From IMG/VR virus record IMGVR_UViG_3300031957_001682, positions 32,001-96,000 of that record: a stretch of 64,000 bases of DNA; one strand, given 5' to 3'. The notes under the pieces were generated by a model. That model saw nothing but the letters and a program-made list of their open reading frames with translations, had not been told where the DNA came from and searched no databases. This DNA comes from a virus. A program made the position numbers and the translations under genes. Positions 23,403 through 39,241 of the stretch are shown here, in pieces (positions within the stretch are counted from its first letter, which is position 1; the number at the start of each line of letters is the position of its first letter).

Positions 23403-23590
23403 TTTTTCTTCCCCTTCTTCTTACCTTTGAACTTACCTTTGCAATATTGAACAGCCCATCCATTTGCATAGGCTGATGGGTAAACATCGAACTTGCGCTT
23501 TGCCGCCGCTTTACCAGCGGGACACAGTTTCTTTTCTAATGCATCCCACGCTGTTGTCATTCCGACACAGTGACCGCAATAGCAACTCAT
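23399..23590 (-). CDS. Small basic protein (YPSAYANGW family)
   Basis: AKRKFDVYPSAYANGWAVQYCK motif common in phage head modules; preceded by MTTAWDALEK. Confidence 0.6.
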   Translation of the reverse strand: MSCYCGHCVGMTTAWDALEKKLCPAGKAAAKRKFDVYPSAYANGWAVQYCKGKFKGKKKGKKK

Positions 23591-23591
23591 A

Positions 23592-25555: not shown

Positions 25556-25559
25556 TGTA

Positions 25560-26390
25560 TCACCGTGTCTTAATATACATGAAAGCGGCGAGTTCACCAA
25601 TTTCATTTGGTGTCATTTTGTAAAGATTATCGGGTCCGAGTAAGTCGAATAACATTCCATTAAACGCTTTGGTGGGCATCAATACAGGTCTTGGTTGTCC
25701 GGTCACGGGGTCTATGGATGCTTGATACTGCGCCATCCCCGATGGATTCATTTGTTGTTGAACGGTACTTGCCATATTTGACTGATTCAATACATTGGGA
25801 GGTAGTGGTGGATTCATTTGTTGTTCAACGGTACTTGCCATATCTTGCTGATTCAATACATTGGGAGGTAATGGCACAGCAGGTGCGGCAGTTGCGGCAG
25901 GTTGGGGTAATGCAGGTATGGGTGCGGCAGGTGCAGATGCTACAGGTGCAGGTACGGATGGTGAAGTTGATACATTTACAAGACCAGTGGATGAAGGTAA
26001 TGGTACTCCACCTTCATTTGCCGCCATACCCGGAGCGGGTAATGGGATAGAATTGGGTTTAACCCCGACATGAGAATTTCCTTCAATTTGTCTTGCTGTG
26101 AATGCCCCTGTTGGGTCAAGTCCTTGATAGGTGTACCCTGCTCCAAGTGGAGCGGCTATGTTGCCACCTTGCATTGCATCAGCGGTGCTTAAAGCAGTAG
26201 CCCCTAAAGCCGCACCTTTACCAGCAAGTCCAGCAAGTCCAACCAATCGACCTGTTCTGCTAACTTTGGAACCGGGTTTTGTACCACGACCACGAACCGC
26301 ATTGAACAAATCCATTGCCGAAGGACTACCTTGACCCACTGTTTGAAATTGAGTCACATCTGCTTTTACCAAAACTTTGTTGCTCACCAT
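25560..26390 (-). CDS. Pro/Ala/Gln-rich putative internal virion protein
   Basis: N-terminal VLVK-A, Gly/Ala hydrophobic segment LVGLAGLAGKGAALGATAL, 22-aa duplicated repeat. Confidence 0.55.
   Translation of the reverse strand: MVSNKVLVKADVTQFQTVGQGSPSAMDLFNAVRGRGTKPGSKVSRTGRLVGLAGLAGKGAALGATALSTADAMQGGNIAAPLGAGYTYQGLDPTGAFTARQIEGNSHVGVKPNSIPLPAPGMAANEGGVPLPSSTGLVNVSTSPSVPAPVASAPAAPIPALPQPAATAAPAVPLPPNVLNQQDMASTVEQQMNPPLPPNVLNQSNMASTVQQQMNPSGMAQYQASIDPVTGQPRPVLMPTKAFNGMLFDLLGPDNLYKMTPNEIGELAAFMYIKTR
25744..25870. repeat. Tandem duplication with a 66-bp period
   Basis: ggattcatttgttgtt(g/c)aacggtacttgccatat...gattcaatacattgggaggta at 25744 and 25810; encodes PLPPNVLNQxxMASTVxQQMNP x2. Confidence 0.9.
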
Positions 26391-26391
26391 A

Positions 26392-28593
26392 TCACCCCAT
26401 GTTTGTTTTTATGACTTTGATAATCTTAGCATCAACATTGTAGGACTTAGCGATGTTGTGCCAATCTCCCATTGTTTGATTGATTGTCACGACCTCACTT
26501 GCGGTTAGCCCGACATGTTTCGCCAGTGCGTGTGGATTGTTAAGATTACTGTTAATTTTAATCCCCTCGAATCCGGCTTCTTCTTGTTGCATTCGCTCTA
26601 ATGCTTTCATCACTCGGTCCATTACCGGTAGGTGTGCATCTTCGCTTCTTAGGTACTGGTCAAGTAATTGCTGTCTTGGGTCGGAAAGTGATTGTTGCGC
26701 CCTTCTTTCAATCGGTGTTAAAAATTCATCCGGTGCTGGACTTGCTCGACCTCCACCACCAGCAACCATCATTTCTCTAAATTGCTGTGGTGTTTGATTT
26801 GCAATCTGTGGTCTAACTTGCTGGAACCGTGGGTCAAGAGGCGTAGCCGGTGGGCCTTGTGGTCTTACCGCTACAGGAGGAAGAGGTGCCGCACCGGAGG
26901 GAGGTGGTGAAGAAACCGGAACCTGCGAAAGAGCGGAAGCAGGGGATTCCGGTGCGACTGTATCACCACTTGGGCGAATTGGCATGGCTGTACTTTCTGC
27001 AAAGTCTTCCATAGGGTGTAGGTATGCATCCATGTGAGGGTCGAGTGTGGCATCAACTCCTTCTTCGGGATAATCTAAAAATTGCATATTTTTTGCTGGT
27101 TCTGTTTTTATGTCACCAATGGGCATTTTTACTGGCAAACCCTGTGATTCTGCTTGGTGGTCGGCTAATGCTTCGATAATACCACGAAAACGCTCGACTT
27201 GACCCATAAGCCGCTCATCGTATCGTACACCAAATGCGTTTAACTGCTCACTGTCAATTGAATGATTACTCAAATTACTTCGCTCGGAGTCATCATCACT
27301 TAGACCGGACCTGTGAGCGAGTGCCATAAGACGGGCGGCAGTGGTGTCTTTTCCTTTGCTACCACCCCTACCGGGTTTGAAATGACGACTTTGTTCATCA
27401 TAGGACAAACCTTCTTCTCCTTCACCATAGATACCCATGAGGCTATTGAAATGCTTGTTAAAATCACCTTGACCCGGCCTACCAAACAAATACATCATTG
27501 CTGGTACATTTGCCATATCTTGAATTAAACTTCTTCGTAGTTCACTATCTTGAAGAATGACACGAAGTGGGCGTTGAATCATTTCGGGACTCGCTAAAGT
27601 GCCCACATTGATTGTAGCGGGTACATCGGGAATTGCATCTATGTTGCCCAAAGCGTTTGTAATGGCCCTTTCAGCCATTTGATATAATCCATTTTTGTGT
27701 TCCCAACTACCTTTTTTTCCGGCTTTTTGTCCACTTGCTTTTGTGTTAGGATAAAAGAAAATGTCCGGTAGGTGGTGAGTAGTTGATTCAGTGTGTACCG
27801 CAGTTTGTTCACTGAAATAATCATCGGGTGCCCTTGACATGTGTTGTGTGCTTATTTGATTCGGATGTTCTTGATATGAAGCATCAACTCGACCTTTAGG
27901 TGCTGTTTCACGAGCGTAAATGTAAGGTCTTTTTACAAAAGTTAAATCCGATGATACTTCAAATGGAACTCCATGTTCTCTTTCAAGAATTTGACCAAGT
28001 TCGTGATTAAAAGGAATAGAATATGATTCAATAAAACGACCCATTGGGGTATAGTTTTTGTCACCGGGGGTGAAATTTTTGTTAGTGTAAGTGGTAATCA
28101 AAGAACCATTTTTGGTTTTTGTTGGGCGTTCGGAGTGGCCTTCTGTGCTGTCACCCGGAGGTAGCATTCCAGCCCTAATTTTTCTCCACGCCATGTTGTC
28201 AAAAGGTGGTAATGCGTGCATTCCATTATTCTTATCATCATCACCTTTGTGACTTGTATGGTTTTGATTAAACAATTGAATTGCTTTGTTAATCAAATCG
28301 ACAGGATGTGCTTTGATACCATGTTTTTCTAAAAACCACCCTAAGCGTGTAGCCGCCGCATCAATACCGTGTTGATAACTTCCCATTGGTGTGTTGTAGT
28401 GTAGTTCACCGTGGTCACCCGGAGCAAACTCACCTTCAAGAATTTCTCCTTGAGCATGTGCAAAGGCGGGTACATCTTCTTCTGTAGGTGGTCGAAACGC
28501 TGTTGCCGGTGGGTTGCGAATCATTGCCGCACCCTGTGGGGTAAAATGCTTCATTCCCCATGCTTTAATCAATGGAAAACGAACAGGTATCAT
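26392..28593 (-). CDS. Large hypothetical protein (putative internal virion protein)
   Basis: 733 aa; N-terminal FPLIK-A; Pro-rich linker; C-terminal HTH-like segment. Confidence 0.6.
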   Translation of the reverse strand: MIPVRFPLIKAWGMKHFTPQGAAMIRNPPATAFRPPTEEDVPAFAHAQGEILEGEFAPGDHGELHYNTPMGSYQHGIDAAATRLGWFLEKHGIKAHPVDLINKAIQLFNQNHTSHKGDDDKNNGMHALPPFDNMAWRKIRAGMLPPGDSTEGHSERPTKTKNGSLITTYTNKNFTPGDKNYTPMGRFIESYSIPFNHELGQILEREHGVPFEVSSDLTFVKRPYIYARETAPKGRVDASYQEHPNQISTQHMSRAPDDYFSEQTAVHTESTTHHLPDIFFYPNTKASGQKAGKKGSWEHKNGLYQMAERAITNALGNIDAIPDVPATINVGTLASPEMIQRPLRVILQDSELRRSLIQDMANVPAMMYLFGRPGQGDFNKHFNSLMGIYGEGEEGLSYDEQSRHFKPGRGGSKGKDTTAARLMALAHRSGLSDDDSERSNLSNHSIDSEQLNAFGVRYDERLMGQVERFRGIIEALADHQAESQGLPVKMPIGDIKTEPAKNMQFLDYPEEGVDATLDPHMDAYLHPMEDFAESTAMPIRPSGDTVAPESPASALSQVPVSSPPPSGAAPLPPVAVRPQGPPATPLDPRFQQVRPQIANQTPQQFREMMVAGGGGRASPAPDEFLTPIERRAQQSLSDPRQQLLDQYLRSEDAHLPVMDRVMKALERMQQEEAGFEGIKINSNLNNPHALAKHVGLTASEVVTINQTMGDWHNIAKSYNVDAKIIKVIKTNMG

Positions 28594-30257
28594 CCCATGT
28601 GCCCCCGCTTTGAAGTAAGATAACCAGCGGGGTCAAGTCCTAAACGACTTGAATTGGTTTCAAGATTTTGAGTAGGACCGTCATTCTTCTCATCTTCATC
28701 TTCATTCTGTTGCACACCGGCTGGATGCGCTGGCACTGCCCCTTCTTCAAAAGCCGACGCTGTACCCGCTTTTTTCATATTGGCTTTTTTTCTTTGAAGT
28801 TCAATTAACTGCCTCATCAATTGAAGCATTTCAACACGATTAGCGTGACGATTACCTTTGAGTAAATCACTTTCAGTACGCTCTTCACTCATCATCATTG
28901 TTGACGATGGTGCTGGCATACTCGGAACGCTACTCATCGGTGGAGCCATCTGTGGCATTTGTGGCATGGCTGGCACACGAGGCATACGAGGCACACGAGG
29001 CATACGAGGGCGGCGCATTCTTCGGAGAGAAGGCTGTCGCATTTGTCCCGATTGACCCGGTAATAGACCAGTTAAACGCCCAGCACCAGTTGGTCCAGCA
29101 GTAAACGACCTTGCGCTGTGACGAGCGTGTGGAGAATATGTGTTGCGAACACCACCAAGAATTTTTTGTGATTCTTGCTGGCCCATGTATTGACGGTATT
29201 TTTGTGGGTCTTTACTCATGGGTTGCTTAGTCGCAATACCACGGTGACTCATTTCAACAGACAAGTGAGGCTTCATCAAACCTGTTTTCTTTCCACCCTT
29301 GATACCACGCATTCTTGCTTTAAATCGCTTCATGGTTGCACCAACACCACCGCTTTGCCCACCCGGTGGTTTCTTGAATTGTCCAGTTGAAGGGCGGAAC
29401 TCTCTTCGTTTTTCACGGCGACGACGAGCCTCTATTGTACCCATTGTGTCACGCTTAAGTAGTGTACTCCAAGCATCAGCCATTGGTTCACTCATGGTAA
29501 AACTTGTTTCATCATTAAACGGTACATCAGTAAAATCACGATATTTACCTTCTATATCATCAAACGGAGGTTGTGCATCATCAACTTGAAAATTATGTAA
29601 ATCATATAATTTCTCAAAAAAATCTTCACGAGATGTAGCACTTGCTAAGTGGTTTATGTCGGGTTGTTGGAAATCATCTGCAAGACCCTCATACAAATGG
29701 GGGTTATCTATCTGTTCTTGAATCCAATTATACCATTCGGGGTGAACATCATTACGATTTGGCATTTTGTAATCGTGTTTGTATTGATTTTCACCGGGAT
29801 GAACCGTAGGTTCTTCTTTCAACAATGTACTCCAAGCACCATCCATCGGCTCGCCTGTTCTTACGGCTGAATTACCCGTACCCATCGCTGAACCTGTACC
29901 TGTCTTTGCACCTGTGGCTAAATCGAGTAAATGTCCACGACTACCAGCCGGTCCACCTTGAAGCCCTATCTCACGCTCATCATCACGCTTGTTACCGTCA
30001 TCAAGACCGGGTTCTGTTTCCAATCCCGCCCCTTGACCTAACCCTTGAGATGGTTTAATTTTGATGTGTTTGATTTCTTTGGCCTTTTTCTTAGCCTCTT
30101 CTTCTTTGAGTTTTTTTGCTTCTGCCCGCTTTTCATTATCTTCGGGTGAAGTAGGGTTGTATTTACCCTCATCTTCATTAGCAGAAGAATACATGTGAGA
30201 TGATTCACTACGGGGTGCATACATGCGTGTGTCCGAACCTCGACCCATAACCATCAT
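28590..30257 (-). CDS. Modular low-complexity protein with two cargo tags
   Basis: GEPMDGAWSTLLK-E and SEPMADAWSTLLK-R flank an acidic ~110-aa insert; followed by an Arg/Lys-rich region and (R/M/P) repeats. Confidence 0.6.
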   Translation of the reverse strand: MMVMGRGSDTRMYAPRSESSHMYSSANEDEGKYNPTSPEDNEKRAEAKKLKEEEAKKKAKEIKHIKIKPSQGLGQGAGLETEPGLDDGNKRDDEREIGLQGGPAGSRGHLLDLATGAKTGTGSAMGTGNSAVRTGEPMDGAWSTLLKEEPTVHPGENQYKHDYKMPNRNDVHPEWYNWIQEQIDNPHLYEGLADDFQQPDINHLASATSREDFFEKLYDLHNFQVDDAQPPFDDIEGKYRDFTDVPFNDETSFTMSEPMADAWSTLLKRDTMGTIEARRRREKRREFRPSTGQFKKPPGGQSGGVGATMKRFKARMRGIKGGKKTGLMKPHLSVEMSHRGIATKQPMSKDPQKYRQYMGQQESQKILGGVRNTYSPHARHSARSFTAGPTGAGRLTGLLPGQSGQMRQPSLRRMRRPRMPRVPRMPRVPAMPQMPQMAPPMSSVPSMPAPSSTMMMSEERTESDLLKGNRHANRVEMLQLMRQLIELQRKKANMKKAGTASAFEEGAVPAHPAGVQQNEDEDEKNDGPTQNLETNSSRLGLDPAGYLTSKRGHMG

Positions 30258-30934
30258 TCCACCCCCATGTTTGCTTCAAGTTGCTTTTTAATTCGAGTCC
30301 ATGTTTCCGGGCTTTCTTTACTTAATTCGATTGACAACACATTGATTGTTTGATTAATTTGTTGTCCGTCGCTTTGTGCGCCCCATTGGTCTTGGAACCG
30401 AAGTAGGTCTTTGACTGTTTCTCGCACTTCTTTATGCAATATAACAGCATCCCTTACGAAGCCATCTTCGTGTACACTCCCCTCATCAAGTAATTCGGAA
30501 AGTTTATGATTTAATTTTTGAGCGTTTGAGCGTAGTAATTCAATTTCTCGACCTGCTGTAAGTGCTACTTCTAACGCCGCTGTTTTTTGCACCAGCGGTT
30601 GAAAGTGATTTTTCATGTGACTATACACTACACTTTCACTTATTTCAAGAGCCGTAGCAATGGCATCAGTAGTTCCTCCATTGTTAAAATACTCAAATTC
30701 GTATTCAGCCCGATTAGGTGAAGCACATACAGGGCAAGATGGATTTGCCGCCATGTGGTATTCACCCATGTGATTACGATAATGACGGTCAGCGGTATTG
30801 GCTCGCCATCCCATGTTTTTATCCATTTCTTTAGGTGTGATGTGACCTTGTAAGAGTTGTTCTTCTAACTCATCACGGTCTTCATGAATGCACATTCGGC
30901 AAGAGCGTTTGACAACTTTATCACCGCCCTCCAT
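30254..30934 (-). CDS. Putative terminase small subunit / tandem Zn-HTH DNA-binding protein
   Basis: Two repeats of CxxC-x3-R..E...G...I/M...H-x2-NH followed by a coiled coil; heads the operon leading to terL. Confidence 0.5.
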   Translation of the reverse strand: MEGGDKVVKRSCRMCIHEDRDELEEQLLQGHITPKEMDKNMGWRANTADRHYRNHMGEYHMAANPSCPVCASPNRAEYEFEYFNNGGTTDAIATALEISESVVYSHMKNHFQPLVQKTAALEVALTAGREIELLRSNAQKLNHKLSELLDEGSVHEDGFVRDAVILHKEVRETVKDLLRFQDQWGAQSDGQQINQTINVLSIELSKESPETWTRIKKQLEANMGVE

Positions 30935-30967: not shown

Positions 30968-31285
30968 ATGGTAAATGTAGTGTTCGCAAAAAACATGTGG
31001 AGGGTAAAAAGAGTAGCAGGTGTGCCGCTTAACAAAGAAAGTATTCGTAGCCTTACACAAGCCGCTAAGGATGTTGTAAAAGGTGAATACGCACCTACAA
31101 ATTTAGTGAAAGAAAGACTTCGTATATGTGGCACTTGTCCTCACGGTGGTACAAAATGCTCACTTTGTGGTTGTTTTTTGAAGTCTAAAACAGCATTGCT
31201 TAACTCGCAATGCCCAATACACAAATGGCCGTCAGCGAGTGATACGGGAATAAACACCAGTGAGCATAAGGAAACTACCAAATAA
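30968..31285 (+). CDS. Small Cys-rich phage protein
   Basis: ERLRICGTCP...CSLCGCFLKSK...CPIHKW pattern common in phages. Confidence 0.65.
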   Translation: MVNVVFAKNMWRVKRVAGVPLNKESIRSLTQAAKDVVKGEYAPTNLVKERLRICGTCPHGGTKCSLCGCFLKSKTALLNSQCPIHKWPSASDTGINTSEHKETTK

Positions 31286-31483
31286 TCCTACAAGGTAATA
31301 AGAAACGCTGGCTGAATCCATTGTTCCTCCTTTAAAAATTAAAATCATAAGCATAGTCACAATAATAGAAATTAGTTGCACCATTACCATATCAATTATA
31401 ATGCTTCGATTTGGATTTAACATATCGAGTGTAGTAGCGGCAAAGGAAGTTGGAATGTACCCTGTATAATCATATTCTTTCAT
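31232..31483 (-). CDS. Small 2-TM membrane protein
   Basis: Two hydrophobic helices; GAGGTGA RBS. Confidence 0.7.
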   Translation of the reverse strand: MKEYDYTGYIPTSFAATTLDMLNPNRSIIIDMVMVQLISIIVTMLMILIFKGGTMDSASVSYYLVGLFGSFLMLTGVYSRITR

Positions 31484-31487
31484 AATA

Positions 31488-32111
31488 TCACCTCATACCA
31501 ATAAAACTGCGACCAAGACTACCAAGCCCTCCGCCGACTTTTTCCATTACACCTTCATTAGCAAGAGCCGCTGAAAGCGCACCACCCATCATAGACTGTT
31601 GAGCGAAAGTTGACAGTTGTTGTTGTTCCATTTCTGTTTGACTTACTTTCTGTGTAGCGGCGGCTTGAAGATTGGTAAATTGTCCCGTCACATTTTCTGC
31701 GCTCATAGTTTGCAAATTTGATGGAAGTGAAGTCACATCCATTTTCATTGTACCACTTTCTTCGTCAATAGTAAAAGTAGCATTACGAAGAACTTCAAGA
31801 ACACTGAAACTCACAAGGTTGCTAAACATTTCAACAAGAGTTCCCATTTGTGGGCTGGCAACATATCGCTCAATAGGAGTAATACCTCGTAAAAGCATAA
31901 TTTGAATTTCAAGTTCACTTGGAGGTGCTACCGGTTGTTGAGTAAATTGATTTTGTTGACCACCAAACATTCCTTGCATAATAGGGGCTTGACTCACACC
32001 CATCATTTGCTGATTAGCCCACGGATTTTGTTGTGTTGCGGGTGCGCCTAAATTCAAAGCACCGTTATTCATTGGTGTCGCACTTCCGCCTAATCCCAAC
32101 ATCTCACTCAC
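31488..32111 (-). CDS. Hypothetical Gln/Met-rich protein
   Basis: Coupled ORF; C-terminal amphipathic Gly-rich helix. Confidence 0.65.
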   Translation of the reverse strand: MSEMLGLGGSATPMNNGALNLGAPATQQNPWANQQMMGVSQAPIMQGMFGGQQNQFTQQPVAPPSELEIQIMLLRGITPIERYVASPQMGTLVEMFSNLVSFSVLEVLRNATFTIDEESGTMKMDVTSLPSNLQTMSAENVTGQFTNLQAAATQKVSQTEMEQQQLSTFAQQSMMGGALSAALANEGVMEKVGGGLGSLGRSFIGMR

Positions 32112-33057
32112 CTACCCCAATACTTTCTTGCTCAAGAGGGTTTTGATTGACTACTTGGGCTACTTGTTGTTGTACAAGTGCTTGAAAAGCCGGTGTTGCT
32201 TGTTGTTCTAACGCTAATTCATGTTGAAATATACGCAAATCAAAAGAAACCGTAGTAATGTCATTTTCTCCTGTAATTGGGTTGGTGTAATGATTCACAT
32301 TGATGCCTTTTGTTTTGCGAGAATCTTTTTCCAGTTCAGCAAAAAAAGGCTCATATTTTTTCAACATAGTAGGAGTAGGGTCTTTTTTGGTGACAGCCGA
32401 AACAGGAACAGTCACAATTGATACACCCTGCTTGACTCTATCTCGTAGTCGTTTTGGATTTGATTCGTTAATGCGGTCTTCTTCTGCTTCCCACTTAACG
32501 AGTAAATGGTATAGATGCATGTGTTCGGGGCAATAAGTTCCTCTCATTTTACGACCACTGGTGACTCGCTCTAAAGCCACAAACGCTTCCGGCTCACCTG
32601 TCACTGGATTTTGCCAATACATTTCCCAAAGACTTCGCCCTGTATCTTCATCGCAAATCTTAGCGTACAAATTATCATATTGAATTAAAGTAGCACAATC
32701 ACACCCATCGACTACACACACACTTGTTTGTTTATTGTAGTGGTATTTTCTTCCAAATACCCATCGTAAAGGATTTAAAAGCCCTCGCTTTGAGGGTGTA
32801 AGAAGTTTGTACGCTTGCTTAATATCTTTTTTTCTTGCTTTTTGTGGGTCGGGATGACGACTTGGGTAAAAATTAACTTTAGGAACTTGCAAATTATTTT
32901 GACTTGCAACTTTTTGCATTGCGCCTTGTGCTGTTGCTTGTTCCATTAAAGCGGCATACGAAAGAGTATCATTACCCTGTTGACTTAACGCCATTAAATG
33001 TGCTTGGTTTACACTACCGAGATTTGCTTGGTTTTGTTGACTAAACTGTGGTATCAT
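32104..33057 (-). CDS. Hypothetical protein with probable Zn site
   Basis: CVVDGCDC...YCPEH; amphipathic LLNPLRWVFG segment. Confidence 0.65.
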   Translation of the reverse strand: MIPQFSQQNQANLGSVNQAHLMALSQQGNDTLSYAALMEQATAQGAMQKVASQNNLQVPKVNFYPSRHPDPQKARKKDIKQAYKLLTPSKRGLLNPLRWVFGRKYHYNKQTSVCVVDGCDCATLIQYDNLYAKICDEDTGRSLWEMYWQNPVTGEPEAFVALERVTSGRKMRGTYCPEHMHLYHLLVKWEAEEDRINESNPKRLRDRVKQGVSIVTVPVSAVTKKDPTPTMLKKYEPFFAELEKDSRKTKGINVNHYTNPITGENDITTVSFDLRIFQHELALEQQATPAFQALVQQQVAQVVNQNPLEQESIGVGE

Positions 33058-33236
33058 TGTTTTTCACCTTTGTACATTTTAAGATAAAAACCATTTTGTA
33101 AGTCACCGCAAAGTTCCCATTTGATTTTATCACCTGCTGATAATTCTAATAATTCTGCCATTACCGCTGGTATGACGGTTCTAACACATTTACTTTTTTT
33201 ATTCACGGCAATTACAGTTGTAGTTTTGTTTAACAT
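33054..33236 (-). CDS. AbrB/MazE-like swapped-hairpin DNA-binding protein
   Basis: RTVIPAVMAELLELSAGDKIKW matches the archaeal AbrB-like pattern. Confidence 0.7.
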   Translation of the reverse strand: MLNKTTTVIAVNKKSKCVRTVIPAVMAELLELSAGDKIKWELCGDLQNGFYLKMYKGEKQ

Positions 33237-33245
33237 ATTTTTCCC

Positions 33246-33962
33246 TCAAGTTGTTAATAAGTCAATCATGGTTTCTTCCACATTCCATCCTATTCGTGTA
33301 GCCATAAAAGACCTGCGAGTAGGTATGTTTGCTTTTTGAAGTCGAATTAAATCATCTCGAAATGCATCAAAGATTTTGTGTTCACCAATGCGGTTTTGTT
33401 GCCAAAGCATAGCGGCATTTTCATCAAAAAATCGGTCGGCTTTGTTAGCCACAAGCATAACTAAACGAGGTGCGTACTTTTTACCCTTCCAACGACTTTT
33501 GAAGTTTCTATACCGATATGAGCGATTGATTAAACTATCAACAAGATACTTGAAGCCAGCAATTTGTTGCAATGCTTCTTCACCACCTTTTATTGCCCTG
33601 TCATCAAAAACAAATAAAACGGCTTCAACTTGTCTTCCTACCATATCGTCAATCCAAAGATTCCAAAACCGTTCTTGTCCTCCTACATCGGATGAATACA
33701 CCACTCGCTTTTGTCCTTTCCAAGAAATGCGTTTACGAGTTGCTTTAGGCATCATGTATCGACCAAGTAATTTCATGTGTGAAGTTCGCTCTTCATCACT
33801 TATTTCTTCCATTTCACCCGGAGTTGTCATGTATCGGTCAAGTGTAGTTTTACCTACCATTGCCGCTCCATAGACACCTACTTTTCTTGGTCGCCAAGAG
33901 TTGTATAACATTTGACCATAAAGAGCCGCACCTACAAGTGCTGAACCTGCTGGGTCAACCAT
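33246..33962 (-). CDS. Ras-superfamily small GTPase (Arf/Rab-like)
   Basis: G1 GAAMVGKTT, G2 Thr (ERTS), G3 DVGGQERFWNLW, AVLFVFD, G4 ANKAD, G5-like MATRIGWNVEE; N-terminal hydrophobic helix. Confidence 0.85.
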   Translation of the reverse strand: MVDPAGSALVGAALYGQMLYNSWRPRKVGVYGAAMVGKTTLDRYMTTPGEMEEISDEERTSHMKLLGRYMMPKATRKRISWKGQKRVVYSSDVGGQERFWNLWIDDMVGRQVEAVLFVFDDRAIKGGEEALQQIAGFKYLVDSLINRSYRYRNFKSRWKGKKYAPRLVMLVANKADRFFDENAAMLWQQNRIGEHKIFDAFRDDLIRLQKANIPTRRSFMATRIGWNVEETMIDLLTT

Positions 33963-34215
33963 TTAACTTCCCCCATATCCAATCTGCAAGATTTTGTACT
34001 TTTTTCCAAACCCATTCAACGGTGTTTTCCCAAAAAGATTCACCTGTGGTTAGTTCCCATAGACTGATTATCAATGCAGTAATAAAACAAAAAAAGACTG
34101 TTCTTATCCAACCGATTCCTTTTTCGTAATATGTGTCAAGAGTGTTTTGAGTGTGCATTGCACGAAGTGTGGCCTCGGTTGAATCATCAGTAGGGGTTTT
34201 GAAGATACGACCCAT
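33955..34215 (-). CDS. Single-TM membrane protein
   Basis: WIRTVFFCFITALIISLW plus a Trp-rich amphipathic C-terminus; overlaps the GTPase start. Confidence 0.7.
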   Translation of the reverse strand: MGRIFKTPTDDSTEATLRAMHTQNTLDTYYEKGIGWIRTVFFCFITALIISLWELTTGESFWENTVEWVWKKVQNLADWIWGKLNG

Positions 34216-34224
34216 TTAACCAAC

Positions 34225-34755
34225 TCACTTTTTCTTTTCTTCTTCTTCTTTTATACCAAGATTAATTGGTTGTTTTACTTCTGCTTCATGATTTGGAATA
34301 CCCGGATTAAATTTTTCAGCGTCATGCTGTGAAATTAACGACTGTGAACCACCCGGTACACCCCAACTTGGAGGCATTTTACCGGGGTTCATTTCCATCC
34401 AGCGCAATTCTTGTTCAAGTTGTGCTTCTTGCATACGCATTTCCATATCATTGCGTCGATTATCAAAACTAAGTTGCATTTGGCGGTATCGGTCTTGCCT
34501 ACTCTTCTCAACTTGTGTTGTTCGTACTCTTTCTTGCATGTTTTGTTCAAAAAACATCTTAAAAAAGTAATATGCAATACCTTGAACAAAAAATGCCGCC
34601 ATAGCATAAGTAAAACCATTTAACATTGGTGTATCGCTAATTAACCATAATTCTGCATCAAAAACACCAATTGCGATACCTACTAATGCCGATTGAGCCA
34701 AAATTAGCCCCATAAGTCGTATTTCTGCGTCCGAGTCTTGCCTGTTGCCTTGCAT
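34225..34755 (-). CDS. 2-TM membrane protein with cytoplasmic coiled coil
   Basis: Two hydrophobic helices then a Gln/Glu/Arg/Met coiled coil; BRE/TATA-like GCGAAATGCTTATA ~30 nt upstream on the minus strand. Confidence 0.7.
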   Translation of the reverse strand: MQGNRQDSDAEIRLMGLILAQSALVGIAIGVFDAELWLISDTPMLNGFTYAMAAFFVQGIAYYFFKMFFEQNMQERVRTTQVEKSRQDRYRQMQLSFDNRRNDMEMRMQEAQLEQELRWMEMNPGKMPPSWGVPGGSQSLISQHDAEKFNPGIPNHEAEVKQPINLGIKEEEEKKK

Positions 34756-34802
34756 GTTGCTCGTTATTGGTCAATTTGGAAGCCAATATAAGCATTTCGC
34801 TA

Positions 34803-34935
34803 TAATTGTCATCATTGTCATAATACCATTCAAAATAATGAGTAGTATTACTATATATTTAGTGTAGGGGGGTGAAAATGACAAACATTAGTCAATTTGT
34901 TGACTACGATGATGACAATTATGACAATTGACAAT
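34803..34935. repeat. Non-coding TGACA/TGTCA inverted-repeat element, copy A
   Basis: attgtcatcattgtcataat ... AT-rich core ... aatgacaa, gtcaatttgttgac, atgacaattatgacaattgacaat. Confidence 0.7.
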
Positions 34936-37670
34936 CAAAGTAAGGTTCCTTTGTCCTTGAAATGCCTCGCTCGGTTGGTATGAGGGTCTTCGGGAACAAT
35001 AGTGTGCTGGCTGGTGTGGCTCATGTCCGGTCCACCCTGTCCCATAATGTGTCGTTGTCGGCGTTCACGGTTAAGTTCCTCTCGATACTTCACACGCTCC
35101 GGGCTGGACTCGTACTTCTTGTCGTACTCCAACTTATGCCGCTTGGCTTCGGGGCTTACACGCTCTTTAAGTAATCGCATAGCAATCTCCATTGGTTCGC
35201 CTTGCTGTATCATTTGCGGTTGTTGAGATTGTAAATGATTCCAATACTCATAGGTATCGGGTCTATGTTGTAGCATTTCATTAACCCCCGTTTGATTTGA
35301 TTGGTCCGATTGATGTGCACCATATTCATGAGCATACACTCTTGCTTGATTAGCCAACGCAACTCTTTGTTTTTCAGCATCCATTTCGGCTTGGTTTGTA
35401 GGTTTGGTCTTTAATCTTTGTAAAAAAGAGGCTCCTTGCATATCTGTAGGATATTCGGGTTTTACTTGAGATTGTAATGGCCCATGTTGTTGTTCTGCCC
35501 ATTCATTTATTTCGGGGTTAATTAGACTGTGCGTATATTCATGCCCAAGAGTGTTTGCTAATCCTTGTATAGATTCATCACTGTCGTTTATACCACGCAC
35601 ATCAGCCCCAATAAAATCCCCATTTGATTGAAGTCGTGGTTGAGAGCCACCGGTTGTGTAATCACCTTTATTTTGAATTTCTTGCACAGTATTTTTATCC
35701 ACTCCACTCATTCGATTCATAGTTTGATTGCGAGGTATTGATAGCAATGCTTCATTGCTAATATCGGCAGGTGTATAAAATCCCTGCATACCTTCTTCGT
35801 CATCACCAATATAGAACTCTTTGAGCAAACGCATAGCAATATCCATTGGTTCGCCTTGCTGTATCATTTGCGGCTGTTGTACTTGCGGCTGTTGTACTTG
35901 CGGCTGTTGTACTTGCGGCTGTTGTACTTGCGGCTGTTGTAATGGTAATTGTTGTTGATTTGGGTCTGTTGGTTGTACAACTGGGTTAGGTTGCATGTAT
36001 TGAGCCATTCGTTGATTATAGTCATCCGTAATTTGTTCACGATTTTTCCCCCATCTCATTCTGTATGGCTCTTTAGGTCTAACTTCACCTCTTTGATTTG
36101 TTTGTTGAAGATTGGGTGTATCAATTTCTGTATTTTCTCTTTGTGCTATTTGCCCTCCTATTGATAAAGCGGGTTGTGACATGGCTGTATTTATCTCATT
36201 TTGGTTATTTGTTCTCGCATGTGCTGTGTTTTCTAATACTGAATTTGTAATGGGTGTATTGGTTAAAAATTGTCTTGGTATATTTCCACCGTAATGTGTT
36301 GCATCACTAAAATCAACTGTTTGTCCTTGCGCTGTTTTAAAATTATGACTTGGGCCTATGAAATTTGGATGGTTTTGGTCGAAAGCGGCTTGTCTTATTG
36401 CTAATAATTTAGGTTTGGAGTGTGTACCTCCACCATGATGACCCACACTTCTATCAATTGCATAACTAAGTGCTTCCGAAGGATTTGTACTCATGGTGCG
36501 GTAATTATCACTATGTGTTTTTAAACCATCTCCACCCATTATTTTTCTTGCATCATCACCCGTAGTTCCGTGATAAGCAACTACAGGGCCGTAAGGTGAA
36601 GGAAAGTCTTCATGATGCTCGCCTAAATTAGTTTGATATTTAAGCAACCGCATAGCGAGGTCCATTGGTTCGCTTCTATAGAATTGTGTTGGGTTTTTTA
36701 ATGCACCCGGAATTGCAGTTAATTGGTCATCGAGTAATTGCATTTGTTCGGGCGAAGTATGTGTTTCATCTAATTCTGCTACACGCCCCGATGGTCCCAT
36801 AGTTCGTTCCCATTGTTGAAAAGTACCATGTAATGGGTCCATACCCCCACCTATGTTTCCTGTTAAATCGTTGAGGTTTTCTGTTATAGAAGAAATTACT
36901 TTTCCATCCGGTCCTATTTTTGTTGGTACAATATCTTGGAATGATTTTATACCATAGGCTCTTGCTGTTTGTGGGTCAATTAAAGCACCCGGAATTTCAG
37001 CATCCATTATCATTTGGGCAAGTTCACGAGCACGATGACGCTGTGCTCCTTCCAGTCCTATTCTTGATGGAGGGGCATCTTTACTTCTTGGTAAAAACAT
37101 ACTTGCGGCTCTTTGAAGGTCATAAAGCATAAATGGGTTTTTGTTAAGTCGGCGTACACTGTCTTCTTCTAAATCACCATAAATGATTCCTTCGGGGTCT
37201 TGATTTTTACCGTATCTTTCCGGTGTACTTTCAAAACCATACAAATTTAAAGGCCATGCTCTTTTACTTTCGGGTACATCAACAAATTCGCTACCTTGTC
37301 TTGGTGTTAAACCCATTGCATGACTCGGAAAAACAAACCTTCCTCCAAGTGGCTCATCAGTCATTATGGTTTCAAGTGGTAGTTCTTCCCCTCGACCCAT
37401 TTCTAAATTATGGTCCCTAAAACTTGTATTTTCACGATTGGCAAGTTTTCTTGCTAAATGTAAATTTTTACTTGGGTGGTATTTACTGGTATTTTGTGCA
37501 GAAGTTAATCTAAGTGACCTATTTGGAGAGTATCTTTGGTGAAAACCAGCCATAAGTTCATCGAATTTTCGCTCATTATACTCACGAATAATTTCATCCC
37601 AACGCTCATTTTGGTTTTTAAGAAGGAGGAAAGCCTGTTCCATTGGCTCTAACTCTCTACGCATACGCAC
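34935..37670 (-). CDS. Four-module polyprotein (unknown / ART-like / zincin-like / HNH-like), each module preceded by a cargo tag
   Basis: EPMEQAFLLLK, EPMDLAMRLLK, EPMDIAMRLLK, EPMEIAMRLLK; modules carry YHGT..ST...A.SYA..GNIP, HEYTH...HEYGAH, and DMSH...EDPHTNRAR. Confidence 0.75.
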   Translation of the reverse strand: MRMRRELEPMEQAFLLLKNQNERWDEIIREYNERKFDELMAGFHQRYSPNRSLRLTSAQNTSKYHPSKNLHLARKLANRENTSFRDHNLEMGRGEELPLETIMTDEPLGGRFVFPSHAMGLTPRQGSEFVDVPESKRAWPLNLYGFESTPERYGKNQDPEGIIYGDLEEDSVRRLNKNPFMLYDLQRAASMFLPRSKDAPPSRIGLEGAQRHRARELAQMIMDAEIPGALIDPQTARAYGIKSFQDIVPTKIGPDGKVISSITENLNDLTGNIGGGMDPLHGTFQQWERTMGPSGRVAELDETHTSPEQMQLLDDQLTAIPGALKNPTQFYRSEPMDLAMRLLKYQTNLGEHHEDFPSPYGPVVAYHGTTGDDARKIMGGDGLKTHSDNYRTMSTNPSEALSYAIDRSVGHHGGGTHSKPKLLAIRQAAFDQNHPNFIGPSHNFKTAQGQTVDFSDATHYGGNIPRQFLTNTPITNSVLENTAHARTNNQNEINTAMSQPALSIGGQIAQRENTEIDTPNLQQTNQRGEVRPKEPYRMRWGKNREQITDDYNQRMAQYMQPNPVVQPTDPNQQQLPLQQPQVQQPQVQQPQVQQPQVQQPQMIQQGEPMDIAMRLLKEFYIGDDEEGMQGFYTPADISNEALLSIPRNQTMNRMSGVDKNTVQEIQNKGDYTTGGSQPRLQSNGDFIGADVRGINDSDESIQGLANTLGHEYTHSLINPEINEWAEQQHGPLQSQVKPEYPTDMQGASFLQRLKTKPTNQAEMDAEKQRVALANQARVYAHEYGAHQSDQSNQTGVNEMLQHRPDTYEYWNHLQSQQPQMIQQGEPMEIAMRLLKERVSPEAKRHKLEYDKKYESSPERVKYREELNRERRQRHIMGQGGPDMSHTSQHTIVPEDPHTNRARHFKDKGTLL
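35176..35879. repeat. 50-bp direct repeats (35176-35225 and 35830-35879) bracketing the zincin module
   Basis: cgcatagcaat(c/a)tccattggttcgccttgctgtatcatttgcgg(t/c)tgttg, 2 mismatches. Confidence 0.9.
35868..35940. repeat. 15-bp tandem repeat, about 5 copies (QQPQV linker)
   Basis: ttgcggctgttgtac repeated. Confidence 0.9.
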
Positions 37671-37723
37671 CAGTTGGTGGTAAAAAGCGATACCATTTAG
37701 AATGCTCGCCCGCTACGAGAGTC

Positions 37724-39241
37724 ATGGGCCGACATGTTGCTGTGCGTAAAGCACCTACTCCGGCTGATGCTGGGGGTGCAGTTGCAGGTCGAGCCGCCGG
37801 AGGCGGTATAGGTAGTGCCATAGGTGGTGTTTTAGGTTCTATTATCCCCGGTGCTGGCACTGCGGCTGGTGCTTCTGCTGGTGGTGCAGTTGGTGGTGCA
37901 GTTGGTGGTGCAGTTGGAAAAGTTGGTGCTAAGAAAATTGCTGTTGGAGCCGCTGAAATGGCACAAAATCAAGCCAATGCTCAAGCCGCTCAATCACAAC
38001 AAACCATGCAGAATAACATTCAAAGCGCAAAGGACACGGCTCAACAAGCCAAAGACCAAGCCGGTATCGAAAAGGCTTGGAAGTTTCCAGCAAGAATGAT
38101 GCACCCGGAATTTAAATCATATCGGGATAGCATTATTGAGCGGGCTAAAAAAGCACCTCGACAAGATGAAGATTTTCGTCAAAACCAGCATTGGAATGAA
38201 CGCATGGGTCATAAAGAAGGCAGACCCCAAGAGGCTCGCTACATTCCAAACCAACACTTTGAACATGAAGATGAAGTACACAACATTACTCCATTTCAAG
38301 TTGCTTATGCTACATTGCAACACATGAAAGAAAATAGGTTAATTGATGAAGACAATCACGATGCTGTAGCATTGCGGGAATTACTTCATACTGACCAACC
38401 ACACCCCGACCCTAATCAAATGGAAAGTGGTATGGCTCACATATTTTCTCCTGTAATGGATATTAGGACTATGAGGGGTAAATCAGCACACGCTCAACCA
38501 TTTATTGACCCAAAGGGTGCAAAAACACAGCATATTTACGCACAAGATGTAGTAAAACCCGATAATCTTTCATATTCATCACAAGAAAAAATTGCTGTGC
38601 GACCAAAATCAATTGTAAATGAATATATGCCCGGTAAAAGAGCAAAACCAAGTGAAGAAGAACTTATTGACAGTTTTATTGACACTCCGGCAAGTAAATT
38701 ACAAAGAAATTTTGGTATTGAAGACAATAGACTTGCAGGGCAAGAATATATTGCTCAAAGAAAATATGAAAAAGAACAAGCCAAACAACAAGCGGCTCAA
38801 CAGGCTCAACAAGAAGCACAGGCTAAAGAAGAACAATTTCAACAACAACCAATAACAGTAAATGATATGGGCGGTGTGTACTTTGTCACAGACCCCGCTT
38901 ACGGTTATAATGGTGAAATGATGGATTATCAACAATTAGTTCAAGGTGGGTATGACAAATATCTTAACAATGATAACAAAAGTGAACCAATGGACTTAGC
39001 GTGGCAAATGTTGTTTAAAGCGGGTGTTGAAGTTCACCACGATGAACCACTGCCGCAAGAGTTTACTCAAGACATTACTACACTTGACCGTCAACACAAA
39101 ATGGTTCCAACAGAAAACGGCACTATGATTGACAATATCAGCCCACACATGCTCCGTACCATTGAACTAATGGCGCAAAATCACAAAGATGATGATACTT
39201 TCACACCTAAACCATTTAAAATGCCTACAACTTTTCATTGA
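37724..39241 (+). CDS. Modular protein with N-terminal glycine zipper and internal cargo tag
   Basis: VAVRK-A; GGGIGSAIGGVLGSIIPGAGTAAGASAGGAVGGAVGG; SEPMDLAWQMLFK-A at 38984-39019. Confidence 0.65.
   Translation: MGRHVAVRKAPTPADAGGAVAGRAAGGGIGSAIGGVLGSIIPGAGTAAGASAGGAVGGAVGGAVGKVGAKKIAVGAAEMAQNQANAQAAQSQQTMQNNIQSAKDTAQQAKDQAGIEKAWKFPARMMHPEFKSYRDSIIERAKKAPRQDEDFRQNQHWNERMGHKEGRPQEARYIPNQHFEHEDEVHNITPFQVAYATLQHMKENRLIDEDNHDAVALRELLHTDQPHPDPNQMESGMAHIFSPVMDIRTMRGKSAHAQPFIDPKGAKTQHIYAQDVVKPDNLSYSSQEKIAVRPKSIVNEYMPGKRAKPSEEELIDSFIDTPASKLQRNFGIEDNRLAGQEYIAQRKYEKEQAKQQAAQQAQQEAQAKEEQFQQQPITVNDMGGVYFVTDPAYGYNGEMMDYQQLVQGGYDKYLNNDNKSEPMDLAWQMLFKAGVEVHHDEPLPQEFTQDITTLDRQHKMVPTENGTMIDNISPHMLRTIELMAQNHKDDDTFTPKPFKMPTTFH

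What the first reader, a model, noticed from the sequence alone, without database searches (positions are those of the whole stretch)
31232..34755. Virus-encoded Arf/Rab-like small GTPase in a self-contained membrane-protein operon: candidate egress or membrane-remodelling system
Seven tightly coupled genes share one BRE/TATA-like promoter: 2-TM+coiled-coil, 1-TM, small GTPase, AbrB-like regulator, Zn-site protein, Gln/Met-rich protein and 2-TM protein. The GTPase has G1-G4 and a G5-like motif, with the eukaryote-like G3 context DVGGQERFWNLW (Arf DVGGQ, Rab GQERF) and an N-terminal hydrophobic helix as in Arf/Sar1. Small GTPases are unusual in tailed viruses. A small GTPase (ArvA) is known to drive vesicle formation in haloarchaea. 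No holin/endolysin is recognisable in this window. Inference: a GTPase-controlled lysis, budding or superinfection-exclusion machine for a host without a peptidoglycan wall.
Basis: partly seen in the sequence, partly recalled or inferred. Interest (0 to 1): 0.82.

Follow-up and report, generated by a model that had tools for sequence, protein, structure and literature searches.

The report
Arf-like GTPase membrane cassette, magrovirus
A complete 108-kb tailed virus of the abundant ocean archaea Marine Group II encodes a very divergent Arf-type GTP switch, packed into one gene block with three small membrane proteins and two proteins of unknown fold. No paper I could search describes the block, and it is an untested candidate for how such viruses act on, or leave through, the host membrane.

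Summary
Seven tightly packed minus-strand genes (31232-34755) sit behind one conserved BRE/TATA-like promoter, and all are under purifying selection. Gene 3 is a real small GTPase with G1-G5 motifs. Its AlphaFold model (pLDDT 87) is closest to Arf/Arl proteins and Asgard ArfR (Z 17-18, against about 15.5 for Rab/Rag), but it misses every curated Arf/Ras model cut-off.

The genome is a magrovirus: its capsid protein matches only archaeal tailed viruses, and it has PolB, a group II chaperonin and an HMG-CoA-lyase-like gene. A relative sits on a 106-kb contig of a Poseidoniales single-cell genome.

The core order 2TM, 1TM, GTPase, Cys/His protein, Gln/Met-rich protein, 2TM is kept in 80 of 80 loci and in lineages with only 35-40% GTPase identity. 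The AbrB-like gene is accessory. The profile found no cellular homologue in 200 Poseidoniales genomes, so this is not a recent host capture.

Function is untested. Late action on the host membrane, most likely in release, is my leading inference (about 0.35). No searchable paper describes the cassette. This scan has already flagged the same cassette in at least 30 other genomes.

The parts
34756..34934 (-). Upstream control region. It holds a BRE/TATA-like promoter (GCGAAA-N3-TTATAT, TATA starting at 34791, about 38 nt before the g1 ATG) and five copies of the 7-mer ATGACAA/TTGTCAT arranged as an inverted pair of tandem repeats.
   Evidence: Sequence read. The motif GAAA-N3-4-TT(T)AT(A/G)xTG(A/G)CC is conserved at the same distance from the g1 start in most of 19 related loci.
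34225..34755 (-). g1, 176 aa: a membrane protein with TM 14-32 and a second aromatic hydrophobic stretch at about 47-68, then a basic/acidic long helix and a disordered acidic tail. By the positive-inside rule the C-terminal helix faces the cytoplasm (inference).
   Evidence: Present in 79 of 80 loci in the same position. dN/dS 0.04. A 2-TM counterpart is present in L087 and L088.
33955..34215 (-). g2, 86 aa: a single-pass membrane protein (TM 34-52) with a Trp-rich amphipathic C-terminal tail. Its stop overlaps the GTPase start by 8 nt.
   Evidence: Found in 79 of 80 loci. A 1-TM counterpart lies directly before the GTPase in L087, L088 and L089. dN/dS 0.07.
33246..33962 (-). g3, 238 aa: a divergent Arf/Sar/SR-beta-like small GTPase. 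It has an N-terminal hydrophobic helix (4-23), G1-G5 motifs, a conserved 25-residue insert in the switch I region (invariant R59, T60, H62), and a polybasic insert (146-166, 9 Lys/Arg in 21 residues).
   Evidence: Motifs. Model with pLDDT 87. Foldseek hits are all small GTPases at E about 1e-8. The top 16 VIA-align entries are all Arf family, Z 16.0-17.8. The profile hits Asgard ArfR 8OUN at E 2e-5 and Arl8A at 3e-4. It is the best conserved gene of the block, 64-93% identity.
33054..33236 (-). g4, 60 aa: a possible AbrB/MazE/SpoVT-type swapped-hairpin protein. It is an accessory member of the cassette.
   Evidence: Sub-threshold hits only: MazE_antitoxin E 0.03 and AbrB TIGR01439 E 0.06. Found in 45 of 80 loci by tblastn and absent from L087-L089. 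It has the highest dN/dS of the block, 0.29.
32104..33057 (-). g5, 317 aa: an orphan soluble protein with a Gln-rich N-terminus and tail, a helical core carrying an invariant Cys/His site (C114, C176-P-x-H179, H184), and a C-terminal beta-hairpin domain.
   Evidence: Alignment. Model with pLDDT 73. No fold match: Foldseek best E 0.49, VIA-wide best Z 5.4. No Pfam, PHROG, NCBIfam, PADLOC or PDB hit. It lies downstream of the GTPase in 80 of 80 loci, separated at most by the g4 slot (L054 has about 1 kb between them), and in L087-L089. The family has 784 clusters, all unnamed.
31488..32111 (-). g6, 207 aa: an orphan protein with a variable Gln/Asn/Gly/Met-rich N-terminus, a conserved central domain, and a Gly/Ala/Met-rich C-terminal segment.
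   Evidence: Alignment. Composition. No hits. Found in 80 of 80 loci. Counterparts in L087, L088 and L089.
31232..31483 (-). g7, 83 aa: a small two-pass membrane protein (TM 32-50 and about 58-78), the last gene of the cassette.
   Evidence: Found in 80 of 80 loci. dN/dS 0.13.
30968..31285 (+). Convergent 105-aa Cys-rich gene (DUF6171-like) that bounds the cassette at its 3' end. It is not part of the cassette.
   Evidence: Pfam DUF6171 at E 1.3e-4, below the cut-off. Conserved on the opposite strand in 42 of 80 loci.

Best explanation
This is a late-expressed, self-contained cassette that is conserved throughout a large clade of magroviruses, the tailed viruses of Marine Group II/Poseidoniales archaea.

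Its centre is a divergent Arf/Sar/SR-beta-type small GTPase. I infer that this protein sits on the cytoplasmic face of the host membrane, held by its N-terminal hydrophobic helix and a polybasic loop. In its GTP state it would organise or gate the three cassette-encoded membrane proteins: g1 (2 TM plus a cytoplasmic long helix), g2 (1 TM plus a Trp-rich tail) and g7 (a small 2-TM protein). The two orphan soluble proteins, g5 (Cys/His site) and g6 (Gln/Met-rich), would act as effector, regulator or scaffold.

The most likely purpose is timed remodelling or permeabilisation of the host cytoplasmic membrane at the end of infection, so that virions can leave a cell that has no murein wall.

Shown here: gene reality, GTPase fold and motifs, Arf-type affinity, strict synteny, viral and archaeal context, and absence of a host homologue.

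Inferred: membrane association, GTP switching, late timing, and the egress role.
For: GTPase identity:
- G1-G5 motifs are conserved across the family.
- The model is confident.
- The nearest structures are Arf family: Arl8b Z 17.8, Arf6 17.7, Arf1 17.5, Asgard GerdArfR1 17.1, against Rab5/Rag at about 15.5.
- The family profile hits Asgard ArfR 8OUN at E 2e-5 and Arl8A at 3e-4.

Module behaviour:
- Order and orientation are the same in 80 of 80 IMG/VR loci.
- All 32 TerL-selected loci with enough flank carry it 7.8-9.9 kb upstream of TerL.
- The same 2TM, 1TM, GTPase, g5, Q-rich, 2TM order holds at 35-40% GTPase identity.
- In L089 it lies in a different neighbourhood, next to the chaperonin, which shows it moves as a unit.
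- Genes overlap or abut, and all are under purifying selection.

Membrane link:
- Three of the six core genes are membrane proteins with the strongest TM scores in the genome.
- The GTPase has a hydrophobic N-terminal helix and an insert with 9 Lys/Arg in 21 residues.

Timing and position:
- It lies on the morphogenesis arm, with its own conserved TATA-type promoter and operator-like repeats, upstream of the packaging genes.

Need for such a function:
- No holin or endolysin family was recognised in the genes scanned.
- The review PMC10791045 states that the lysis machinery of tailed archaeal viruses is uncharacterised.

Not host-derived.
Against: - No experiment or expression datum bears on function.
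- The N-terminal helix is only moderately hydrophobic (no KD-19 window reaches 1.6) and has a low hydrophobic moment (about 0.15). It is therefore neither a clear TM anchor nor a clear amphipathic helix.
- The catalytic-type Gln after G3 is not invariant: it is Glu, His, Ala or Asp in some lineages.
- Holin-like topology is generic. No lysis-category PHROG matches g1, g2 or g7.
- Late position fits an assembly role equally well.
- The closest cultured relatives (Druskaviridae, e.g. HVTV-1) showed no GTPase match anywhere in their genomes and no such cassette in the 28 kb around TerL, yet the review reports that archaeal head-tailed viruses commonly lyse their hosts. The cassette is therefore not a general requirement for egress of archaeal tailed viruses.
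- A few other small TM ORFs exist elsewhere in the genome.
Confidence: 0.35

Rival explanations
1. Membrane-bound assembly or packaging platform. The GTPase and its membrane partners would tether or time prohead assembly or DNA packaging at the cytoplasmic membrane, rather than breach it. Phage T4 initiates proheads on the inner membrane in this way (established knowledge).
For: The cassette lies inside the morphogenesis arm, between a tagged 911-aa late protein and the HTH/Zn protein g8, 555-aa and 733-aa proteins and TerL. Its distance to TerL is fixed in 32 of 32 loci. An earlier scan note places it between head and neck genes in another lineage (unchecked).
Against: None of the seven proteins carries the PMxxA[WM]xxLK tag that the flanking late proteins carry in multiple copies. 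HVTV-1, with a related capsid protein, assembles without such a cassette. In L089 the cassette sits beside the chaperonin, not the packaging genes.
Confidence: 0.2
2. Vesicle or compartment formation. This would be an ArvA-like or Arf/Sar-like vesiculation machine that builds intracellular or extracellular membrane structures, such as a replication or assembly compartment or decoy vesicles, in a host that lacks its own Arf-type GTPase.
For: The G domain is of Arf type. A small GTPase, ArvA, drives vesicle formation in Haloferax (PMC10927574). The Pfam Arf model found nothing in 101 Poseidoniales genomes although it rings in Haloferax volcanii. g5 and g6 have Gln-rich low-complexity ends that could support multivalent assemblies (inference).
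Against: The neighbours show no DUF2072 or DUF2073 (ArvC/ArvB) hit. No coat-like fold was found for g5. Tailed viruses are not known to need membrane compartments, apart from some jumbo phages (own knowledge).
Confidence: 0.15
3. Superinfection exclusion or host take-over at the membrane. The cassette would block entry of competing viruses or rewire transport or signalling of the infected cell.
For: It encodes membrane proteins plus a switch protein, and has a regulated promoter with operator-like repeats.
Against: Exclusion genes are usually variable accessory genes, whereas this block is universal, position-fixed and the best conserved of its neighbourhood. It lies on the late arm. No PADLOC hit.
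Confidence: 0.1
4. A soluble regulatory GTPase unrelated to membranes, for example controlling translation, transcription or protein folding. On this reading the adjacency of the membrane genes would have no functional meaning.
For: The N-terminal helix is not a clear membrane element. An AbrB-like gene is often in the block.
Against: The two TM genes directly upstream, the g5 gene downstream and the TM gene at the end are kept down to 35% GTPase identity, with overlapping junctions. That is hard to explain without a shared function.
Confidence: 0.08

Closest known systems
Arf-family small GTPases (eukaryotic Arf1/Arf6, Arl1/Arl6/Arl8, Sar1; Asgard archaeal ArfR such as GerdArfR1, PDB 8OUN/8OUM, bioRxiv 10.1101/2024.02.28.582541)
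   Same: Same Ras-like G-domain fold. These are the nearest structural neighbours (Z 16-18, rmsd 2.3-2.7 A over about 160 residues). The family profile aligns to 8OUN (E 2e-5) and to Arl8A switch II (DIGGQ...W). G1 ends in GKTT and G5 is of the 'AT' type. A helix precedes strand 1.
   Different: - Only 15-21% identity.
- Below the curated Pfam and NCBIfam cut-offs.
- Ser/Ala instead of Trp before the G3 Asp.
- A 25-residue conserved insert in switch I, and a polybasic insert after helix 3.
- The N-terminal helix has a low amphipathic moment.
- It is encoded by a tailed archaeal virus, next to membrane proteins that have no Arf-pathway counterpart.
SR-beta (beta subunit of the signal-recognition-particle receptor)
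   Same: An Arf-related G domain preceded by an N-terminal hydrophobic membrane anchor. It appears among the structural matches (5ck3_D, Z 15.1).
   Different: It scores lower than Arf/Arl chains. No SRX/longin-type partner was recognised among the neighbours. That SR-beta is an ER protein of eukaryotes is my own knowledge.
ArvA/ArvB/ArvC vesiculation system of Haloferax volcanii (PMC10927574)
   Same: A prokaryotic small GTPase in an operon with small partner proteins, one of them a zinc-type protein, acting on the archaeal membrane.
   Different: The partners here show no DUF2073 or DUF2072 hit. Three integral membrane proteins are present. It is virus-encoded. Direct sequence comparison with ArvA could not be run because no reference sequence was available.
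Holin-based lysis cassettes of tailed bacteriophages
   Same: Small one- and two-pass membrane proteins encoded together on the late arm, upstream of the packaging genes. That this resembles the lambda layout is my own knowledge.
   Different: No endolysin or spanin, and no lysis-category PHROG hit. A GTPase and two large orphan proteins are integral parts, which has no precedent in phage lysis cassettes that I know of.
Virus-encoded Rab GTPase of Acanthamoeba polyphaga mimivirus (PDB 5XC5)
   Same: A small GTPase encoded by a virus. It appears among the Foldseek matches.
   Different: The mimivirus protein is listed in PDB as a Rab GTPase; that it is a clear Rab homologue of a eukaryotic host is my own knowledge. 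The magrovirus protein has no detectable host homologue and lies in a dedicated membrane cassette.

Membership tests
Ras-superfamily small GTPase | G1 (GxxxxGK[ST]), G3 (DxxG), G4 (NKxD) and G5 (SAx-type) motifs in canonical order | tested here: met
   GAAMVGKT at 32, DVGG at 92, NKAD at 173, MAT at 220. G1, G3 and G4 residues are invariant in 21 family members.
Ras-superfamily small GTPase | Ras-like alpha/beta G-domain fold | tested here: met
   Model with pLDDT 87 and pTM 0.84. Every one of the 49 Foldseek rows listed is a small GTPase, E about 1e-8; the tool counted at least 500 matches at E <= 0.001. VIA-align Z reaches 17.8.
Ras-superfamily small GTPase | Score above the curated cut-off of a family model | tested here: not met
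   Best Pfam hit is Roc at 18.0 bits against a cut-off of 27. NCBIfam small_GTP scores 18.5 against 42.5.
Arf family (Arf/Arl/Sar/SR-beta, Asgard ArfR) | Closest structural and profile similarity is to Arf-family members | tested here: met
   The top 16 VIA-align entries are all Arf family (Z 16.0-17.8); Rag and Rab follow at 15.9 or below. The best PDB profile hits are Asgard ArfR 8OUN (2e-5) and Arl8A/Arl8B/Arl10 (3e-4 to 7e-3).
Arf family (Arf/Arl/Sar/SR-beta, Asgard ArfR) | Match to Pfam Arf (PF00025) above the cut-off | tested here: not met
   No PF00025 hit at E <= 0.1. PF00025 also found nothing in genome G001, which carries a viral copy.
Arf family (Arf/Arl/Sar/SR-beta, Asgard ArfR) | N-terminal amphipathic helix, or a TM anchor in SR-beta, before strand 1 | tested here: inconclusive
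   A helix at 4-23 is predicted with pLDDT 56-68 and is hydrophobic across the family. Its moment is only about 0.15 and no window reaches the TM threshold.
Arf family (Arf/Arl/Sar/SR-beta, Asgard ArfR) | Switch II signature: Trp before the G3 Asp (WDxGGQ), and a Trp eleven residues after the Asp | tested here: inconclusive
   The downstream Trp (W103) is invariant and aligns with the Arl8A Trp. The upstream Trp is replaced by Ser, Ala or Arg. The Arf consensus itself is recalled from memory.
ArvA vesiculating-GTPase system | arvB (DUF2073) and arvC (DUF2072) genes next to the GTPase (PMC10927574) | tested here: not met
   No such Pfam hit for any of the seven proteins at E <= 0.1.
ArvA vesiculating-GTPase system | Sequence affinity to HVO_3014 (ArvA) | not tested
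Phage holin/lysis cassette | Small late membrane protein(s) adjacent to a wall- or envelope-degrading enzyme, or a match to a known holin family | tested here: not met
   No lysis-category PHROG or Pfam holin/endolysin hit for g1, g2 or g7 or their neighbours. The PHROG 'tail lysin/endolysin' hits of the 532-aa ORF fall on a Gly-rich low-complexity stretch. Topology alone is compatible.
Magrovirales (context of the cassette) | An HK97-type capsid module related to Druskaviridae, its own PolB replisome and chaperonin, two oppositely transcribed arms, and a Poseidoniales association | tested here: met
   The capsid protein matches only archaeal tailed viruses (HVTV-1 and HCTV at 35-37%). PolB, an RFC-like gene, ERCC4, a group II chaperonin and an HMGL-like gene are present. 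The arm layout is shown and agrees with PMC10768690. A relative lies on a 106-kb contig of a Poseidoniales single-cell genome.

The most novel reading that the evidence does not exclude
Magroviruses carry a virus-specific Arf-type GTP switch. Together with three dedicated membrane proteins and two proteins of new fold, it forms a previously unknown egress or membrane-remodelling machine of tailed archaeal viruses. That would be the first identified release system for head-tailed viruses of wall-less archaea, and an Arf-like membrane GTPase system outside eukaryotes and Asgard archaea.
Probability: 0.28. Interest if true: 0.9.

Novelty: new variant of a known kind. Interest (0 to 1): 0.7.

Why it matters
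[quoted passage not shown] Their hosts, Marine Group II archaea, are uncultured. How head-tailed archaeal viruses leave their cells is an acknowledged open question (PMC10791045).

This cassette is universal in the clade sampled, is under strong purifying selection and has no host counterpart. That makes it a concrete, clonable candidate: six proteins that can be tested in Haloferax, Thermococcus or on liposomes.

It also adds a deeply diverged viral branch to the Arf-like GTPases. That bears on how membrane-acting small GTPases spread among archaea, viruses and the ancestors of eukaryotes. Two of its proteins (g5, g6) have no recognisable fold or family.

Tried and rejected
- Co-folding of the GTPase with g5 (residues 55-300), GTP and Mg gave no verdict: runs scored 0.36, 0.00 and 0.00. 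I do not count it either way.
- No RNA holder was listed among the sequencing runs. 20 DNA runs from 11 studies hold the stretch. I did not lay reads.
- The ESM Atlas gave no usable lead for g6 or g5.
- g5 model: Foldseek PDB best E 0.49, VIA-wide best Z 5.4 (generic helical bundles such as connexins).
- PDB profile searches for g5 and g6 gave nothing below E 0.18.
- PADLOC and NCBIfam gave nothing meaningful for any cassette protein.
- A search for longer, fused forms of the GTPase found none, which is weak evidence.
- tblastn of the GTPase against 50,697 phage records found no match.
I repeated it with the closer alignment A2.
- Apart from the Poseidoniales single-cell contig, the five MAG hits carry alphaproteobacterial (Maricaulis; Parvibaculum, twice), Flavobacteriales and Promethearchaeati labels. 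Three are 8-16 kb contigs and one is a 101-kb contig. I read them as mis-binned viral DNA.
- The reference magrovirus ON649702 is not in the annotated collection. I therefore could not test whether the cassette anti-correlates with the holin-endolysin system reported for Adrikavirales (PMC11706807).
- g8 compared with HVTV-1 gene 108 (a possible small terminase subunit) showed no similarity.
- The 'tail lysin/endolysin' PHROG hits of ORF 37643-39241 are due to a Gly-rich zipper-like stretch, not a catalytic domain.
- The bacterial sigma-70 and terminator scan was at chance level.
- A pattern search for a second copy of the g1-type promoter in the window found none above chance.
- I did not build a phylogeny against Arf, Sar, Rab, ArvA or MglA references, because no reference sequences could be fetched by reference.

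Full report
**What is there.** The window is bases 32001-96000 of a 107,632-bp IMG/VR virus record with direct terminal repeats, estimated 100% complete. Between 31232 and 34755, seven minus-strand ORFs are packed with gaps of 4-9 nt or overlaps of 4-8 nt. An intergenic region of about 180 nt lies upstream. Downstream lies a conserved gene on the opposite strand (30968-31285, DUF6171-like, found in 42 of 80 related loci).

Against the nearest relative, all seven genes have dN/dS of 0.04-0.29 with synonymous sites near saturation. So the small ORFs are real genes too.

**The virus and its host.** The genome has a caudoviral morphogenesis arm: an HK97-type capsid protein (SU10_MCP), an S78 prohead protease, a portal and TerL. 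An oppositely transcribed replication arm carries PolB, an RFC-like clamp loader, an ERCC4 nuclease, an SNF2 helicase and a group II chaperonin. There is also an HMG-CoA-lyase-like gene.

The capsid protein matches only archaeal tailed viruses in a collection of 50,697 phage records. The best matches are the Druskaviridae HVTV-1 and HCTV-1/5 at 35-37% identity. This layout and gene set agree with the published description of Magrovirales (PMC10768690; PMC5332604).

A distant relative of the cassette lies on a 106,262-bp contig of a single-cell genome labelled Candidatus Poseidoniales. TATA-type promoter motifs sit about 20-40 nt before start codons. An archaeal, Marine Group II host is therefore well supported, though still inferred.

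**The GTPase.** g3 (238 aa) carries G1 GAAMVGKT, G3 DVGGQ, G4 NKAD and a G5 MAT. G1, G3 and G4 residues are invariant across 21 family members spanning 32-91% identity.

Curated models barely see it: Pfam Roc scores 18 bits and NCBIfam small_GTP 18.5 bits, both below cut-off. An exhaustive phmmer pass over 1.84 billion representatives returns only 77 proteins, several of them full-length at 35-61% identity. It is therefore a closed family.

A profile of the family reaches the Asgard Arf GTPase 8OUN (E 2e-5), Arl8A/B and Arl10 (3e-4 to 7e-3) and Rab33B. 8OUN is described in bioRxiv 10.1101/2024.02.28.582541.

The AlphaFold model is confident (pLDDT 87.4, pTM 0.84). Every Foldseek row listed is a small GTPase. 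On re-alignment, the top 16 entries are all Arf family: Arl8b Z 17.8, Arf6 17.7, Arf1 17.5, GerdArfR1 17.1. Rag, Rab5 and SR-beta follow at 15-16.

Family-specific features are:
- a helix at residues 4-23 before strand 1. It is hydrophobic and rich in Gly, Ala and aromatic residues, but has a low amphipathic moment and is below a TM threshold;
- a conserved 25-residue insert in the switch I region, with invariant R59, T60 and H62;
- a polybasic insert after helix 3, with 9 Lys/Arg in 21 residues.

The Gln after G3 is common but not invariant. I file it as a divergent Arf-like member of the Ras superfamily, not as a certified Arf-family member.

**The partners.** g1 has one strong TM segment, a second aromatic hydrophobic stretch, and a long charged helix that should face the cytoplasm by the positive-inside rule. 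g2 is single-pass with a Trp-rich tail. g7 is a small two-pass protein.

g5 has an invariant Cys/His site (C114, C176, H179, H184) and Gln-rich ends. Its model (pLDDT 73) matches no known fold. g6 has a variable Gln/Asn/Met-rich N-terminus, a conserved core and a Gly/Ala/Met-rich tail.

Neither g5 nor g6 has a Pfam, PHROG, NCBIfam, PADLOC, PDB or Atlas lead. The g5 family has 784 clusters, none of them named. g4 looks like an AbrB/MazE-type hairpin protein only at sub-threshold E-values, and it is accessory.

**Conservation as a unit.** In 80 IMG/VR loci found through the GTPase (64-93% identity), g1, g2, g3, g5, g6, g7 and the following HTH/Zn protein g8 keep the same order and strand. g1 and g2 are seen in 79 of the 80 loci and the others in all 80. 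The GTPase is the best conserved of them.

All 32 loci chosen independently through TerL, and having at least 9 kb of upstream flank, carry the cassette 7.8-9.9 kb upstream of TerL. Three deep lineages (L087, L088, L089; 35-40% GTPase identity) keep 2TM/TM, 1TM, GTPase, g5 and the Q-rich protein. L087 and L088 also keep the final 2-TM gene. In L089 the block sits next to the chaperonin, in a different neighbourhood.

In HVTV-1, the closest cultured relative by capsid protein, the stretch around TerL holds no such cassette, and no halovirus record matched the GTPase.

**Promoter.** A motif GAAA-N3-4-TT(T)AT(A/G)xTG(A/G)CC lies 30-40 nt before the g1 start in the window and in most related loci. 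Upstream of it, the window has five copies of ATGACAA/TTGTCAT arranged as inverted tandem pairs. Related viruses have other short tandem repeats in the same place. This suggests a regulated promoter with virus-specific operators. No other promoter of this type was found in the window.

**Not a host capture.** The family profile finds only P-loop-level noise (E > 0.03) in 200 Poseidoniales genomes, apart from the viral contig itself. The Pfam Arf model finds nothing in 101 of them, although it rings in 12 of 14 control genomes, including Haloferax volcanii. No fused form was found.

**Function.** Nothing here measures function. The content of the block is three membrane proteins, a GTPase with candidate membrane-binding elements, and two orphan proteins with low-complexity ends. 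Add its late-arm position with its own promoter, and its universality in the loci sampled. Together these point to a GTP-gated activity at the host membrane late in infection.

No holin, endolysin or other lysis family was recognised in the genes scanned. The apparent lysin hits of ORF 37643-39241 are a Gly-rich artefact. The release machinery of tailed archaeal viruses is unknown (PMC10791045). I therefore rank timed membrane disruption for egress first, at about 0.35.

The rivals are a membrane-bound assembly platform (0.2), vesicle or compartment formation (0.15), exclusion or take-over (0.1) and a non-membrane regulator (0.08).

Against the egress reading: related haloviruses lack the cassette, and the review reports that archaeal head-tailed viruses commonly lyse their hosts. 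Holin-like topology is also generic. The cassette proteins lack the PMxxA[WM]xxLK tag carried by the flanking late proteins, which weakly argues against a role as virion cargo.

**Literature and earlier scan notes.** None of the magrovirus papers I could read mentions a GTPase (PMC5434244, PMC10160649, PMC11706807, PMC5332604, PMC10768690). JGI's automatic 'GTPase SAR1 family protein' label on some homologues is the only prior annotation I saw.

This scan has flagged the same cassette in at least 30 other genomes, with similar follow-up verdicts. I reached the identity, synteny and host conclusions independently here.

Noticed in passing
window 30968-31285 (+): A 105-aa Cys-rich ORF (DUF6171-like, E 1.3e-4) lies on the opposite strand between the cassette and g8. 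It overlaps the 3' end of g7 by 54 nt and is conserved in 42 of 80 related loci. Its function is unknown.
   Followed up: partly
window 34806-34927: Five copies of the 7-mer ATGACAA/TTGTCAT form an inverted pair of tandem repeats (17-nt arms, 94% complementary, 87 nt apart) upstream of the cassette promoter. Related viruses carry different short tandem repeats (e.g. TGAATAAAG, TGAACA) at the same place, like virus-specific operators.
   Followed up: partly
window 42906, 45164, 51731, 54977, 56928, 59726, 61324; genome G000 3110 and 99487: Nine near-identical copies of a motif of about 35 nt lie just before plus-strand early or replication genes. On the gene strand it reads ...TTGATATAAAGAACAAAAGAAAC, ending about 6 nt before the ATG where checked (gene at window 45184), with its TATA-like hexamer about 20 nt upstream. 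It is probably the early promoter, and the spacing would imply near-leaderless transcripts.
   Followed up: partly
window 37643-39241 (+): A 532-aa ORF lies on the opposite strand to its neighbours. It has a Gly-rich zipper-like stretch (residues about 40-140) that draws PHROG hits to tail lysins and tape-measure proteins, and a C-terminal PMDLAWQMLFK tag. No catalytic lysin domain was found.
   Followed up: partly
L088 (CACGHY010000002.1, 106,262 bp): A virus-sized contig in a Candidatus Poseidoniales single-cell genome (AG-422-I20) carries a distant copy of the whole cassette. This gives a direct, if single, physical link between this virus group and Poseidoniales cells.
   Followed up: partly
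genome G000 11527-30606 (-), just before the window: A single open frame of 6,359 codons lies at the distal end of the late arm, presumably a giant tail or fibre protein. I did not analyse it.
   Followed up: no
window 34935-37670 and 28590-30257 (-): The late proteins flanking the cassette carry four and two copies of the PMxxA[WM]xxL(L)K tag noted by other first-stage readers. None of the seven cassette proteins carries it.
   Followed up: partly
window 30254-30934 (-): g8 (226 aa from the internal ATG) has two CxxC...H-rich segments, a weak HTH (GerE) hit and a C-terminal helical region, and always follows the cassette. It may be a small terminase subunit or a late regulator. It shows no similarity to HVTV-1 gene 108.
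   Followed up: partly
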